NCBI RefSeq assembly: GCF_017348835.2
Contig: NZ_CP071375.1
DNA: 64,000 nt
From: Escherichia coli
GTDB lineage: Bacteria; Pseudomonadota; Gammaproteobacteria; Enterobacterales; Enterobacteriaceae
Direction: 5' to 3' (one strand)
Shown here one piece after another: positions 31,801-49,800 of the stretch (its first letter is position 1; the number at the start of each line of letters is the position of its first letter). Made by a program: the position numbers.

Positions 31801-34800
31801 TTGCTATTTGCTCTGCATGATGACGAGAAATACCATTATTTATAACATTCCGGGCAAGTGATGAATGTGTGTCTTTAAGTCCTAGTGCATCGCGAAGCAA
31901 TTTTTGTGCATCTACAGGTATATCAACACCATTGAGTGAAAGCTTTGCATTGCCGAGTCCTCGAAATGTATCCATAAACATAGAGCTGAATGGTGTAGGC
32001 CCGGAAAGCGGATCTGTTTGAGTATTATGAGGAATCAAGGTTGCTGATAGTTTTGACGTAAAACTAAGTAGATTGTGCATTGACTTATGATCAGTCAGGT
32101 CCATCTTAGATAAGGCACGATGAACCTGAATGTATGGCATGTGGAGATTGATGGGTAAAGATTGTAATAACCTATTTTGTTCGTTTGACTCCAGGAGCAT
32201 AAGAATCTTTTCATTATCTGGTGTGCGAATCTCGGCTTCAACAAGTTCGCTGTTAGTGACGGAAATTCTTAAGGATGAGCCATCTGCAAAATTAGCATAT
32301 ATTCTGCCCAATTCATTAGGCGCGGGAGATACAGGTTCTAAAACGGTTAACAACTCTTGAAATGTTTGCCTTTCACTACGAGTATACGTTGGATTCCATA
32401 AACCAAAACTAAGAACTTTTAGTAATTTTTCAGCGCATGACATATCATTCCACTGCTTTTTAAAATCAGAATTAATTCTAATTGCAGCATCTAAAACTAA
32501 AGATGCGGAATTATTATTAAGTCCGTTTATCATGAGAGATTCCCCTGTCTCATTTATTATGAATGATTCGACAACAGATATCATATAGCATGATATAGTG
32601 TCAATAATATATAAGCTATTTATAGCGAGAGTTTTAAATGTATAGAGAGTTATTTTTTTAAATTAGAGGAAATACTCCTCTAATGACGAACAATAGATTT
32701 TCATTGATTCATCAGCAATAGTTTTTGTGCCTACGAAAAGGTTGTAATTATTTACATTAATAATAGCATTCAGAAAAAATTTTTATTGTGCTGATAAAAT
32801 ATACCATTAGTGATTAGTTTAGATACCTGGCTTTCAGGCAACTTCTTTTTGTCTGTATATAAGGGATGATTACTAAGGTGGTACATTGATATCAGTTAGC
32901 TTTCCCTTTTCGGGTTACTTTATCAAAGAGTCCTCTTTATAGAAGAGCGCATTGTGAGTTTTCCAGATTGACTTAAACGTGTGGCGGCATCACACCGATC
33001 AACACGATCTGCAGCAAAGGGCAGGTGTAACCAGGCCCATCTTAGCGCTATGCACTTTTGAGCCACTGAGCTTGCTAACCGTTTACCCGGCTTTCACTGA
33101 GCTAATTACGGCGATAATCTGATGCCCAGTAAAACGGACTTGATGTATGACGGGTCCTCTTTTGCGGGATAGATATGGGAATATTTCTTAATGCGAATGG
33201 TACGGTTATGCGGGGGGGACAAACATGGTTGCTTGTTCTGCCATTTGTTCCTTGTTCCTTTTTATACCGCCGCCGCTCCCGGTCAGCACTGGGGAATAGG
33301 GGGTTGAGGTATATCTGCTCCTTATGTCAGGGGAACAGGTAATAGCTATATAGCGGAACGTCTTAGTGCTGTAGTTATTCCATTTTGCTATTTGTCTAAT
33401 AGGACTAATCTTAAAGAAAACAAAACGATTAACTAAATGGAAAGGCAATTGTTAATGGCGTTTGCTAAAGAGATGAAATTCTTCTACTTTATTGATTTTG
33501 AATGATTTTTAAGAAATGTGATTTTTTTGTTGACATTTAATGATAATGTGTTTTACACATTATACATCGGTGATTAATAACTTTTATAAGGATTTTGTTT
33601 GATGAAGTAGATGTGTTCTAATTTGATAGATAAAACGTTATCTCACATAATTTATATCATTCGATTAATTGTTGATCCTTCCTGATAAGGATAAGATTGC
33701 TAATAGCTTAATATATTAAAGCATGCGGAGATTATTTATTATGAATATGGAAACTAATTCGCACACAACAAGCCCATACATTCAGCTTATTGAGCAAATT
33801 GAAGTGTTACAACAGGAAGCAAAGCGACTGCGAGAGCAGGAAATTCAAAGTGTAATTGAGTCGATTCAAAAGCAGATTACTTATTACAATATAACCCTAC
33901 AAGAGCTGGGATATACTAATGTGCCTGATGATGGCCTTGCTCGCCGGAACTCATCGAAAAGAGTTTATTATCGCAATGAAGAAGGGCAGACCTGGTCGGG
34001 AGTTGGCCGACAGCCACGCTGGCTTAAAGAAGCACTGTTGAATGGAATGAAGAAAGAAGATTTTCTTGTGAAGGACACCGAAGACGAAATAATACCGCTG
34101 AAAAATATTTAACATGAAATCATTAAATGATAACGATAACTGAACTGGAAGACGAAATAATAAAAAATAAAGAAGCCGCAAATATTTTCATTGAAAAAAT
34201 AAACGACAAAAAGAACGAAATCCATGAAAAAATGAAACACCCCTTGGATAAAGTTACCTACAATGAAGCAAAGGAACTGCTCATTGCCTGCGATGCGGCA
34301 ATCAGGATCATAGAGATAATGCTAATCAGAATTAATAATAAATAGAGGACGAGTATTGTGAGCCAAACAAAAAATAGAGAACTGTTAGATAAAAAAATAA
34401 GATCAGAAATTGAGGTGATAAAAAAAATAATCGCCGAATTTGATGTCGTAAAAGAAAACGTTAATGCTTTAAGTGAAAAAGCAAAAACAGATCCTCAGGC
34501 TGCAGAAAAATTAAACAAATTAATTGAGGGGTATACATATGGTGAAGAGCGAAAATTATATGATTCTGCCTTAAGTAAGATTGAAAAACTAATAGAGACA
34601 ATGAGTCCTCCAAGATCTAAAAACCAATCAACAAAAAATCAACGGAATAAAAATAATAGAAAAATAGTATGACGATTTTGAATAAAATAGACTATAACTA
34701 TTATAAATTAATTAATTATCCAATTATGATGGTCCATGATGAATGGCTAGGTGATTTAACCGGTGTCAATCAGGTTAGTTTTCGGCATTTAAGAGAAAGT

Positions 34801-46800: not shown

Positions 46801-49800
46801 CCCGTCAGTCCCCGTGCTCTCTTTTCAGGAAGTTGGGAATAATATCGAACTTAAAGTATTAGGAACGGTAAATGATTTTAGAGCATGATTCTGTATTGGA
46901 AAGATACCCACGTATCCAGAAAGTGCTCAATAGCACTGTGCCGACATTATCATTAAATTCGTCTACCAGATATGAAGGCAAGATTACCAATATCGGCGGG
47001 ACGATTATCAAGGCGCGTTTACCAAAAGCGCGTATTGGCGCCTTTTACAAGATAGAACCCAGTCAACGTTTAGCTGAGGTGATCGCTATTGATGAAGATG
47101 AGGTTTTCCTGCTGCCTTTTGAGCATATTTCCGGCATGTATTGTGGCCAGTGGCTAAGTTATCAGGGGGAAGAGTTCAAGATTCGTGTTGGGGACGAACT
47201 CCTTGGGCGACTGGTTGATGGTATAGGCAGACCAATGGGGAGCAATATTACTGCACCTTATCTTCCGTTTGAACGCAGTTTGTATGCTGAACCCCCCGAT
47301 CCTTTATTAAGGCAGGTTATTGATCAGCCATTTACGCTTGGCGTCAGGGCAATAGATGGTTTACTTACTTGCGGTATTGGGCAACGCATCGGTATTTTCG
47401 CGGGGTCCGGCGTTGGTAAAAGTACGCTTTTGGGAATGATTTGTAATGGCGCATCCGCGGATATTATTGTCCTTGCCCTTATCGGCGAGCGTGGTCGCGA
47501 AGTAAATGAATTCCTCGCGCTTTTACCTCAATCCACGCTTTCTAAATGTGTACTGGTCGTCACAACGTCAGACCGTCCCGCGCTGGAAAGAATGAAGGCC
47601 GCATTTACGGCGACAACCATTGCAGAGTTCTTCCGGGATCAGGGCAAAAATGTATTATTAATGATGGATTCCGTAACTCGTTATGCCCGAGCCGCGCGTG
47701 ATGTTGGGCTTGCATCGGGAGAGCCTGATGTAAGGGGGGGATTCCCTCCGAGTGTTTTTTCCTCGTTACCCAAATTATTAGAGCGTGCGGGACCTGCGCC
47801 AAAAGGTTCAATAACTGCGATTTATACGGTGCTGTTAGAAAGCGATAATGTGAATGATCCCATCGGTGATGAAGTTCGCTCTATTCTTGATGGACATATT
47901 GTGCTTACCCGAGAACTTGCAGAGGAAAACCATTTCCCTGCAATTGATATTGGTTTAAGCGCCAGTCGTGTTATGCATAACGTTGTTAAATCGGAACATT
48001 TACGTGCAGCGGCTGAATGCAAAAAGCTTATTGCAACCTATAAGAATATTGAACTGCTTATTCGTATTGGTGAGTACACGATGGGGCAAGATCCTGAAGC
48101 GGATAAGGCAATAAAAAACAGGAAAGCAATTCAGAGCTTTATACAACAAAGCACCAAAGATATCAGTAGTTACGAAAAAACGATTGAAAGCCTATTCAAA
48201 GTGGTTGCCTGAATATGTTGGACAGAATTTTATCTATTCGTAAAAGCAGAGCGAATCGATTGAGAGAATCAATGGCTAAGATTAACTCTCAGATAAAAGA
48301 GGTGGATGGTAAACTCGATGACTGCGAGCAAGCCATTAAAGAGTCGATTGCCTCTAAGCAGGCGTATTGTGCATCGCTGGTGAATCTGGATAAAGTGTCG
48401 TTGTATAAATACCAGATTAAAAACAATGCATTTGATGAGCAAAAGCAGCGATTATATGAGAAAAAATCCTCACTTTCTAAAGAAAAGCGTTCATTGCTCG
48501 ATTCACAAAAACGAACAAAAGAGGATCTACAACATGTTAATAAATCAATAGAGAAGTTATCTTTTGCCATAAAGGAACATTACTTTGACTAGCATTTCTC
48601 TAAAAAGAAATTTGATAGAGCCTGTTTCTTTTCAGCCGTCAGATGATTGGCCGCAGGGAGAAGAAAGTTTTAATGATATTTTTAATCGCATAAAAAAAAG
48701 AACACCTGACACTTCGTTCATACGAATGGCTTCTTTATGGAAACGATTGTTCTACGCTCCTGGACAGAGGCGACGCTACTTTGAACAAGGAGAGCGTTCA
48801 TTTAGTATTATTTGTGGAAAGTTACGCGGAATTGTTTTAACAATAAAATGTAGTAATGGAACCATTTATCTGTCTATTACACTGAACCCCAATAACAAAA
48901 ATCATATTTTTTTATACCATAAAAAGAATTATATTTGTGATAAGTTAAAAGAAATCTTTCCTGATGAACCTATTGAATTCTCAATTGAATATGAAAATTA
49001 ATGATTTTTACTTGCCATTGTTGTCAGTCATAGGAACCGGTCGCCTCTATATTACGCCTGAAGGGCATGCTTGCCATGCATATTTTCGCGAAGTCAGCGG
49101 TAATGGTATCCGCTTCAAGTTAACATGCTCAGGCTATGAGGGGCGTTTTTGGATATCAGAAGAACAGTTCATTCAGTGGTGCCAGGAGTTATTCCCGTAT
49201 AGCGAAAGCCGGCTGATACCGGAAGATATGATAAAACTCATGATCTTATGGGTAATGCAGACTGCTTTACCAGAAGGTGATGTGTCTGTTGATGATGTTC
49301 AATTTACGATGCTAAATAAAGATGTTTATCCGGTAATAGAAAATAATAATGGAGAAAACAGACTTAATGTAATTATACTCGAAATAACGGTACAGAGTTT
49401 ACAATATCTAATTAATGAAAATTGGCAATTTGTTCCACATTCTAATACCATTTTCTTTGATGGATATATTGCTCCTGGGTGGACTGATTACCCGGTTACA
49501 GAGCTGACTGTTGGTGATAGTTTAAGGCTCTATCATGTTGATGACAGCAAAGAAAGAGAGTGTTGGCTTGTTATTAATAACCCTTTAGCAACCGTAAAAC
49601 TTTGTGATAATAATTTATTTATTGCGGATGTCCAGGCTGCAGATTTGTTATGTACTATCAGCAATGAGGCTGTAATGGATCGCATTTATTGTGTTATTGG
49701 AACAATTCATGTTGATATACATATGTTGCGCAATGCCAAAAAAGATGACATTATCGATTCAACTGGATATCATCTTTTTGGTGGGTGCCGGTTAATACGC

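What the first reader, a model, noticed from the sequence alone, without database searches (positions are those of the whole stretch)
34669..49001. Extensive start/stop overlaps between consecutive T3SS genes
Several adjacent LEE genes overlap by 1-4 nt (cesAB/escK, escR/escS, escS/escT, sepD/escC, mpc/escV) or more (escT/escU 8 nt, escO/escP 8 nt, escV/escN 17 nt, escP/escQ 38 nt, escK/escL up to 56 nt depending on start choice). This is consistent with translational coupling of structural components. The long escK/escL and escP/escQ overlaps make start-codon assignment of escL and escQ uncertain.
Basis: seen in the sequence. Interest (0 to 1): 0.2.

Follow-up and report, generated by a model that had tools for sequence, protein, structure and literature searches.

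The report
Overlapping start/stop codons in LEE operons
Neighbouring genes of the E. coli LEE type III secretion island really do overlap by a few to a few dozen bases, but this is an ordinary, conserved and already described operon layout, and only the exact start of escQ remains open.

Summary
Window 33.7-50.4 kb is the LEE, 100% identical to E. coli PE164.

The two "uncertain" long overlaps can be narrowed:
- **escK/escL** is 14 nt, not 56. The upstream ATG is lost in E. albertii and absent in two divergent LEEs, and no database entry uses it.
- **escP/escQ** is 38 nt as annotated. Only the second ATG (48991, 11-nt overlap) exists in divergent LEEs, so it is the ancestral start. Which start E. 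coli uses is unresolved.
- **escO** is annotated too short by PGAP. The true start, 48215, lies 2 nt after escN.

Overlaps are concentrated in the apparatus operons: 10 of 20 junctions in LEE1-3 against 0 of 9 in LEE4/5. They are conserved down to about 40% protein identity.

Published EHEC lee3 experiments show strong dependence on upstream translation for escV, escN and escO. Dependence is weak for escP and escQ, which overlap, and moderate to strong for espH, which does not. Overlap length therefore does not predict coupling. The feature is already known and of low interest.

The parts
34669..34672 (+). cesAB stop / escK start overlap, 4 nt (ATGA)
   Evidence: The same -4 is found in the divergent LEE L019 and in Edwardsiella. 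ATG 34669 is the first start codon of the escK reading frame, so no upstream start is possible.
35255..35268 (+). escK stop / escL start overlap, 14 nt. The escL ATG 35255 lies in the Tyr-Glu codons (tAT Gaa) of the escK C-terminus.
   Evidence: PGAP start. The same -14 occurs in L019, which has no upstream in-frame start. Edwardsiella EscL begins MKTTRYRKIKL, which aligns with MKLYEYKNIKID.
35213..35215 (+). Rejected alternative escL start (longest-ORF ATG, which would give a 56-nt overlap)
   Evidence: This codon is ATA in E. albertii, which has no other upstream start. The 231-aa product is absent from a 15-billion-protein collection. At 36% GC an upstream in-frame start before a stop is expected by chance with p about 0.43.
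36564..36568 (+). escR stop / escS start (TGATG), 1-nt overlap at 36566
   Evidence: The alternative TTG 36563 is TTA in E. albertii. The -1 overlap is also found in L019 and Edwardsiella.
36833..36837 (+). escS stop / escT start (TAATG), 1-nt overlap at 36835
   Evidence: This junction varies in the divergent LEEs: +5 in L019, and -4 or -1 in Edwardsiella.
37604..37611 (+). escT stop / escU start overlap, 8 nt
   Evidence: The overlap is -8 in L019 and -4 in Edwardsiella. The N-terminus MSEKTEKPT is conserved in all of them.
38638..38641 (.). Convergent 4-nt overlap of the escU and etgA stop codons (not part of the coupling argument)
   Evidence: The corresponding overlap is 20 nt in L019.
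42529..42529 (-). sepD stop / escC start, 1-nt overlap
   Evidence: Conserved in L017/L019 and in Edwardsiella.
44861..44864 (+). cesL(mpc) stop / escV start overlap, 4 nt (ATGA)
   Evidence: The overlap is -4 in L017 and in C. rodentium. Strong dependence of EscV on mpc translation was shown in EHEC (PMC4868261).
46872..46888 (+). escV stop / escN start overlap, 17 nt
   Evidence: An identical -17 is found in L017, where EscV is 77% and EscN 79% identical. Sun et al. used this ATG as the escN start. Strong dependence on escV translation.
48213..48217 (+). escN stop, a 2-nt gap, then the true escO start ATG 48215 (125 aa). The PGAP start at 48272 (106 aa, +59 gap) is probably wrong.
   Evidence: ATG 48215 is conserved in all LEEs. 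It is the only available start in Edwardsiella. L017 has a -4 overlap here and a 126-aa product. The EscO chain in PDB 6NJP begins MLDRILS. The escA primer of Sun et al. begins ATGTTGGACAGA. Both lengths are common in databases.
48585..48592 (+). escO stop / escP start overlap, 8 nt. The escP start is TTG, preceded by AAAGGAA 7 nt upstream.
   Evidence: The TTG is conserved in O157, E2348/69, E. albertii, C. rodentium and L017. Dependence on escO translation is weak.
48964..49001 (+). escP stop / annotated escQ start overlap, 38 nt (ATG 48964)
   Evidence: This ATG is formed by the Asp-Glu codons of escP (gAT Gaa). It is conserved only in Escherichia and Citrobacter. The 9-residue extension it adds varies at 4 of 8 positions.
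48991..49001 (+). Alternative, ancestral escQ start ATG 48991 (11-nt overlap), formed by the Tyr-Glu codons of escP
   Evidence: This is the only start possible in L017, where a stop codon sits directly upstream, the protein begins MKLNKRYLPLL and the overlap is 14 nt. It is also the only start in Edwardsiella, which begins MIKLEYLSLF with an 8-nt overlap. Distant homologues all begin at query residues about 7-11. A 296-aa form is annotated in some NCBI records.

Best explanation
The overlaps are real, conserved features of the polycistronic LEE1, LEE2 and LEE3 operons, which encode the basal body, export apparatus, ATPase complex and sorting platform.

Most are the standard bacterial -4, -1 and -8 nt stop/start arrangements. 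Three are longer: escK/escL at 14 nt, escV/escN at 17 nt, and escP/escQ at 38 or 11 nt. In each long overlap the downstream ATG is built from conserved C-terminal codons of the upstream protein, for example Tyr-Glu = tAT Gaa.

Because the downstream initiation region lies inside a translated upstream ORF, its use can depend on upstream translation. The possible routes are reinitiation of terminating ribosomes, unfolding of local RNA structure, and protection of the mRNA. This ties together the synthesis of subunits of one machine.

- **Shown here:** presence, coordinates, conservation, enrichment and start-codon assignment.
- **Shown by others, for lee3 in EHEC:** dependence of escV, escN and escO on upstream translation.
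- **Inferred:** that the same applies to LEE1 and LEE2, and which molecular mechanism operates.
For: - Junction table and annotation.
- Identical geometry in O157, E2348/69, E. albertii and C. rodentium.
- In a LEE with 29-82% protein identity, -4, -14, -1, -8, -1, -4 and -17 are all retained. Edwardsiella partly retains them.
- Enrichment against the E. coli background: 11/20 versus 24%, p = 0.0025.
- Enrichment against LEE4/5 of the same island: 10/20 versus 0/9, p = 0.011.
- Short overlaps are 4.5-fold enriched among genes for heteromeric complexes in E. coli (PMC10666635).
- Experimental polarity of translation in lee3 (PMC4868261), with constructs checked from the primer table.
Against: - In lee3 the measured dependence does not follow overlap. 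It is weak or mild at the overlapping escO/escP and escP/escQ junctions, and moderate to strong at the non-overlapping escQ/espH junction (+30).
- mRNA levels fell together with protein. Part of the effect may therefore be mRNA decay or transcriptional polarity rather than coupling of initiation.
- escK, escL and escQ have no detectable Shine-Dalgarno sequence, and escU has only a weak one.
- The experiments were plasmid-based, with a vector RBS driving the first cistron.
- I found no data for LEE1 or LEE2.
Confidence: 0.75

Rival explanations
1. Neutral compaction with dual-coding lock-in. The overlaps arose by drift, through stop-codon loss or start-codon shifts in an AT-rich island. They persist only because any change would now damage one of the two proteins, and they have no role in expression.
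For: - Coupling strength does not follow overlap in lee3.
- Overlap lengths drift between lineages. escK/escL is 14 nt here and 38 nt in Edwardsiella. escP/escQ is 38/11, 14 or 8 nt. escS/escT is -1 or +5. escN/escO is +2 or -4.
- The downstream ATGs sit in conserved Tyr-Glu or Asp-Glu codons, which upstream-protein constraint alone would preserve.
Against: - The overlaps are concentrated in the apparatus operons and absent from LEE4/5, which have the same composition and history.
- They are retained over deep divergence, where the protein termini themselves have changed.
- Three lee3 junctions show direct experimental dependence.
Confidence: 0.2
2. Annotation artefact. The long overlaps come from choosing start codons too far upstream, and the real genes overlap by at most a few bases.
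For: - This is true for the 56-nt escK/escL option.
- It is plausible for the 38-nt escP/escQ option.
- At 36% GC, an upstream in-frame start before a stop is expected for about 43% of genes.
- PGAP mis-places escO in the opposite direction, too far downstream.
Against: - After correction the overlaps are still 14, 17 and at least 11 nt.
- The 17-nt escV/escN and 14-nt escK/escL overlaps are identical in a LEE of only about 40-80% protein identity that offers no alternative start.
- There is no in-frame ATG downstream of the escV stop within the first 50 escN codons scanned. The next candidates are TTG 46896 and GTG 46923.
Confidence: 0.1
3. The coupling is real but works through RNA unfolding and mRNA protection, not through reinitiation at the overlap. 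Upstream ribosomes open structure around the downstream start and shield the transcript from RNases or Rho. Overlap is incidental to this.
For: - Sun et al. mapped negative cis elements inside mpc and escV, and saw escN mRNA fall with protein.
- Dependence is strong at +2 and moderate to strong at +30.
- Predicted opening energies of the initiation regions trend with the measured dependence in every parameter set tried (rho 0.12-0.88).
Against: - That trend is not robust: n = 6, and p < 0.05 in only one of 15 settings.
- In native E. coli pairs, coupling collapses with about 20 nt of spacing, which argues for a local reinitiation event (PMC10666635).
Confidence: 0.35

Closest known systems
Short co-directional stop/start overlaps (-4 ATGA, -1 TGATG/TAATG, -8) with termination-reinitiation coupling, as surveyed by Huber et al. 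2019 and 2023 (PMC6728339, PMC10666635)
   Same: Seven of the ten LEE1-3 overlaps are exactly these three classes. The genes encode subunits of one heteromeric machine, which is the category enriched for such overlaps.
   Different: Three junctions are longer (14, 17 and 38/11 nt). Several downstream genes lack a recognisable Shine-Dalgarno sequence. The measured coupling in lee3 does not track the spacing.
lee3 'vicinity effect' of EHEC O157:H7 (Sun et al. 2016, PMC4868261)
   Same: These are the same genes and the same junction distances (L002). The paper's Fig. 7 legend already tabulates overlaps and SD positions for lee3.
   Different: This window is a different LEE lineage (intimin beta, about 92.5% DNA identity to O157). 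LEE1 and LEE2 were not studied in that paper.
Translational coupling of chaperone and effector in Salmonella SPI-1 (sicP-sptP, Button & Galan 2011; cited in PMC12548453)
   Same: Both are T3SS operons in which adjacent cistrons are translationally linked to match the amounts of interacting partners.
   Different: That case is a chaperone/effector pair. In this LEE the chaperone, effector and translocator operons (LEE4/5) have no overlaps. I did not read the Button & Galan paper itself.
Tandem or internal translation starts in SctQ genes (SsaQ, YscQ, SpaO, Spa33; summarised in PMC5073101)
   Same: escQ also has more than one plausible initiation codon: 48964, 48991, and an internal ATG at 49675 preceded by GAGGC.
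   Different: The known cases yield a C-terminal SctQ-C of about 100 aa. Here the ambiguity concerns 9 N-terminal residues. Whether EscQ makes an SctQ-C was still unclear in 2016.

Membership tests
Locus of enterocyte effacement (LEE) T3SS operons LEE1-LEE3 | Gene content and order: ler-escE-cesAB-escK-escL-escRSTU / etgA / grlRA / cesD-escC-sepD-escJ-escI-espZ / cesL-escV-escN-escO-escP-escQ-espH | tested here: met
   100% identity to E. coli PE164 with PGAP LEE names. Matches in 696 of 5426 complete E. coli genomes. Pfam hits SepQ, T3SS_LEE_assoc, DUF1106, CesA, FHIPEP and the T3SS ATPase domains.
Translationally coupled overlapping gene pairs (termination-reinitiation class) | Co-directional neighbours with stop/start spacing between -8 and about +6 nt | tested here: met
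   11 of 20 junctions fall in this range. Three further junctions overlap by 14, 17 and 38/11 nt, outside the canonical range.
Translationally coupled overlapping gene pairs (termination-reinitiation class) | Both genes lie on one transcript | not testable with these tools
   The operon structure of LEE1-3 is taken from the literature (PMC5073101, PMC4868261). No transcript data were available here.
Translationally coupled overlapping gene pairs (termination-reinitiation class) | Translation of the downstream gene depends on translation of the upstream gene, at constant mRNA level | not testable with these tools
   Literature only. Dependence is strong for escV, escN and escO, and weak or mild for escP and escQ (PMC4868261). 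mRNA was not constant. LEE1 and LEE2 are untested.
Translationally coupled overlapping gene pairs (termination-reinitiation class) | Shine-Dalgarno motif inside the 3' end of the upstream gene | tested here: inconclusive
   A moderate SD is present for escS (GGUGGUG), escP (AAAGGAA), escT, escV, escN and escC. It is weak for escU and absent for escK, escL and escQ.
SctQ genes with an internal start producing SctQ-C | In-frame internal initiation codon with an RBS, yielding the C-terminal SPOA domain | tested here: inconclusive
   ATG 49675 (residue 238, 68 aa remaining) has GAGGC 4 nt upstream. No experimental or comparative test was made. The review states that this was unclear in 2016.

The most novel reading that the evidence does not exclude
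The reference 305-aa EscQ may have the wrong N-terminus or a second one. The conserved initiation codon of the family is ATG 48991. It is embedded in the Tyr-Glu codons of escP, 11 nt before the escP stop, and in E. coli it may be used by ribosomes terminating on escP. The upstream ATG 48964 would then be a lineage-specific by-product of the Asp-Glu codons of escP, giving either no product or a minor 9-residue-longer isoform.
Probability: 0.4. Interest if true: 0.2.

Novelty: already known. Interest (0 to 1): 0.12.

Why it matters
It matters little beyond annotation hygiene. Three practical points follow.

1. EscL should be taken as 217 aa (start 35255). EscO should be taken as 125 aa (start 48215, not the PGAP start 48272).
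2. The EscQ N-terminus used in constructs and structural models (305 aa) is not secured. The family-conserved start gives 296 aa.
3. Anyone making in-frame deletions or start-codon mutants in LEE1-3 must allow for dual-coding segments and for polar effects on translation. These are documented for mpc->escV->escN->escO.

None of this changes how type III secretion or translational coupling is understood.

Tried and rejected
- **RNA opening energy against published dependence.** I correlated the predicted RNA opening energy of each lee3 initiation region with the dependence measured by Sun et al. The trend was positive in all 15 parameter sets, but rho ranged from 0.12 to 0.88 with n = 6. I did not use it as evidence.
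- **NCBIfam.** There are no family-specific models for EscK, L, O, P, CesL or CesAB. EscQ had only a sub-threshold hit to a generic YscQ/HrcQ model. It therefore gives no information on curated N-termini.
- **Pfam SepQ.** The model is 305 positions long and was evidently built from the E. coli annotation, so it says nothing about the start.
- **PDB.** There are no solved chains for EscQ or EscL.
- **Literature on start sites.** I searched for ribosome-profiling or initiation-site data covering the LEE in EHEC or EPEC. Nothing usable was found (one search failed on syntax).
- **Two recent EPEC papers.** The sorting-platform and SctRST papers do not discuss starts or overlaps.
- **Suspected mutation of the wrong escP start by Sun et al.** The text says 'A-to-C', yet the start is TTG. 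The primer table shows that they used the TTG start and changed it to CTG. The suspicion is rejected.
- **tRNA search at the island border.** None found in window 22-34 kb.
- **Species of the divergent LEE contig.** Its flank has no megablast match in E. coli. I did not pursue it further.
- **First look-up for L019.** It failed because I trimmed the wrong end of a minus-strand gene, and was repeated correctly.
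Full report
**What is there.** Window 33.7-50.4 kb is the LEE1-LEE2-LEE3 part of the locus of enterocyte effacement. The stretch 34669-49001 is 100% identical to E. coli PE164 (NZ_CP114128). At 90% identity or better it is present in 696 of 5426 complete E. coli genomes, always once and always chromosomal.

| Junction | Overlap | Position |
|---|---|---|
| cesAB/escK | 4 nt | 34669-34672 |
| escK/escL | 14 nt, or 56 nt | ATG 35255, or longest-ORF ATG 35213 |
| escR/escS | 1 nt | 36566 |
| escS/escT | 1 nt | 36835 |
| escT/escU | 8 nt | 37604-37611 |
| sepD/escC | 1 nt | 42529, minus strand |
| cesL(mpc)/escV | 4 nt | 44861-44864 |
| escV/escN | 17 nt | 46872-46888 |
| escO/escP | 8 nt | 48585-48592 |
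| escP/escQ | 38 nt | 48964-49001 |

**Is it more than chance?** With the best-supported starts, 10 of the 20 co-directional junctions between ler and espH overlap. Eleven lie between -8 and +6 nt.
- In E. coli K-12, 707 of 2987 unidirectional pairs (24%) lie in that range, with -4, -1 and -8 the commonest spacings (PMC10666635). The binomial p is 0.0025.
- About 15% of co-directional pairs overlap in most prokaryotic groups (PMC6728339).
- A better control is internal. LEE4 and LEE5 of the same window (translocators, needle, effectors, chaperones, intimin) have the same base composition, and 0 of their 9 junctions overlap (Fisher p = 0.011).
- The geometry is identical in O157:H7 Xuzhou21, an E2348/69 derivative, E. 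albertii, Escherichia sp. MOD1 and C. rodentium.
- A much more divergent LEE from a Logan assembly (L017/L019; proteins 29-82% identical) keeps cesAB/escK -4, escK/escL -14, escR/escS -1, escT/escU -8, sepD/escC -1, cesL/escV -4 and escV/escN -17.
- The Edwardsiella anguillarum LEE keeps -4, -1 and -1, and has overlaps of different length at the other positions.

The overlaps are thus non-random and conserved, but they belong to the commonest class of bacterial gene junction. All overlaps of 8 nt or more (8, 11, 14, 17, 38) have length 3n+2.

**The escL start.** The 56-nt option uses ATG 35213. Four lines of evidence reject it:
- In E. albertii that codon is ATA, and no other start lies upstream of the conserved ATG.
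- In the divergent LEE there is no upstream in-frame start at all, and the overlap is again 14 nt.
- In Edwardsiella the EscL N-terminus MKTTRYRKIKL aligns with MKLYEYKNIKID, which is translated from 35255.
- The 231-aa product is absent from a collection of about 15 billion predicted proteins, whereas the 217-aa product is present and named.

At 36% GC, the chance that a true start has an upstream in-frame ATG, GTG or TTG before the next stop is about 0.43. The extra ATG is therefore what chance would give. EscL starts at 35255 and the overlap is 14 nt.

**The escQ start.** Both ATG 48964 (38-nt overlap) and ATG 48991 (11-nt overlap) are conserved in Escherichia and Citrobacter. Each is formed by codons of the EscP C-terminus: Asp-Glu gives gAT Gaa, and Tyr-Glu gives tAT Gaa. 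Constraint on EscP alone could therefore preserve both.

Evidence pointing to 48991 as the ancestral, family-conserved start:
- In the divergent LEE a stop codon lies directly upstream of the ATG equivalent to 48991. Its EscQ begins MKLNKRYLPLL, compared with MKINDFYLPLL here, and the overlap is 14 nt.
- In Edwardsiella only that ATG exists, with an 8-nt overlap.
- An exhaustive profile-free search found few homologues, but all begin at query residues about 7-11.
- Five sites vary among six lineages in the 27-nt extension. Four are non-synonymous in the escQ frame (N/K, L/P, N/S, L/S). In the escP frame two are synonymous and the remaining three give only conservative changes, P/A and S/T. This pattern is expected if the extension is under little constraint as EscQ sequence.

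Evidence for 48964:
- It is the start in nearly all annotations: 141 contigs for the 305-aa form of this allele against 5 for the 296-aa form.
- Sun et al. used it as the sepQ start.
- It has the most accessible predicted initiation region of the lee3 genes in 13 of the 15 parameter sets tried, tying for lowest in the other two.

Neither site has a Shine-Dalgarno sequence. I conclude that 48991 is the ancestral, family-conserved start. Whether E. coli uses 48964, 48991 or both is open.

**Other starts.**
- The PGAP start of escO (48272, 106 aa, 59-nt gap) is probably wrong. ATG 48215, two bases after the escN stop, is conserved in all LEEs. It is the only start available in Edwardsiella and corresponds to a -4 overlap in the divergent LEE. 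It is also the N-terminus of the EscO chain in PDB 6NJP and the escA start used by Sun et al..
- escP starts with a conserved TTG preceded by AAAGGAA.
- The alternative TTG start of escS (36563) is TTA in E. albertii, so the 1-nt overlap with ATG 36566 stands.

**How it works.** Coupling has been tested directly for lee3 of EHEC O157:H7 (PMC4868261). From the primer table, the first cistron of each construct was fused to a vector ATG. In the 'AC' variants it was replaced by a three-codon mini-ORF, with the native start changed to CTG. Blocking upstream translation had these effects:

| Upstream -> downstream | Spacing | Effect on the downstream product |
|---|---|---|
| mpc -> escV | -4 | strongly reduced |
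| escV -> escN | -17 | strongly reduced |
| escN -> escO | +2 | strongly reduced |
| escO -> escP | -8 | hardly changed |
| escP -> sepQ | -38/-11 | mildly reduced |
| sepQ -> espH | +30 | moderately to strongly reduced |

escN mRNA fell in parallel with protein, and negative cis elements were mapped inside mpc and escV. Dependence on upstream translation is therefore real in this operon, but it is not predicted by overlap length. Its mechanism could be reinitiation, RNA unfolding or mRNA protection, and this is not settled. These are the same alternatives discussed for coupling in general (PMC12548453). My attempt to relate predicted RNA opening energies to the published dependence gave a positive but non-robust trend. 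I found no experiments on LEE1 or LEE2.

**Comparison with what is known, and novelty.** The arrangement is the textbook one for operons encoding heteromeric complexes. In E. coli, pairs spaced -8 to +10 nt are 4.5-fold enriched for complex subunits. The lee3 distances and SD positions were already drawn in Fig. 7 of Sun et al. 2016. The finding is therefore already known. The only increments from this analysis are annotation-level:
- EscL is 217 aa.
- EscO is 125 aa.
- The family-conserved EscQ start is the second ATG.

**Verdict.** Novelty: already known. Interest is about 0.12.

Noticed in passing
window 48215-48592: PGAP annotates escO as a 106-aa 'hypothetical protein' starting at 48272. 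Comparative and experimental evidence supports the 125-aa form starting at 48215. Both lengths are widespread in public databases.
   Followed up: yes
L017 and L019 (Logan ERR4503945 contig 972, 48 kb): A complete but strongly divergent LEE, with proteins 29-82% identical to the window's. It carries Tir, CesT and a long intimin-like gene placed upstream of ler. Its flanking DNA has no megablast match in any complete E. coli genome, and the host species is unknown.
   Followed up: partly
window 49675-49881: There is an internal in-frame ATG in escQ (residue 238, 68 aa to the stop), with GAGGC 4 nt upstream. It is a candidate start for an SctQ-C-like product. The 2016 review states it is unclear whether EscQ has such a start.
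   Followed up: no
window 38638-38641: escU and etgA converge and share 4 nt, so their stop codons overlap on opposite strands. The corresponding overlap is 20 nt in the divergent LEE.
   Followed up: no
window 35254-35259, 48990-48995; L017 10000-10005; L016 14088-14093: The start codons of escL and escQ are built from a Tyr-Glu (tAT Gaa) or Tyr-Asp codon pair near the C-terminus of the upstream protein (EscK or EscP). For escQ this is seen in every LEE lineage examined. For escL it was checked only in the Escherichia lineages. It is a small, conserved dual-coding motif.
   Followed up: partly
window about 455-2721 (minus strand) and 63974-64000: In the identical PE164 record, adiA (arginine decarboxylase) is annotated as frameshifted. 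espF, at the window's end, is annotated as frameshifted and partial.
   Followed up: no
window 24.4-32 kb: Between cadC and espG lies a patch of degraded mobile-element genes: an integrase fragment, cbeA and DUF987-type CP4-like remnants, and IS256 and other transposase fragments. ARAGORN found no tRNA gene in 22-34 kb, so the tRNA usually associated with LEE insertion is not on this side of the island.
   Followed up: partly
L016 (Edwardsiella anguillarum ET080813): This species carries a LEE-like island with the same gene order, including a Ler homologue (56% identity). Its escV/escN junction offers a start with a strong AGGAGG SD that would give a 47-nt overlap.
   Followed up: partly
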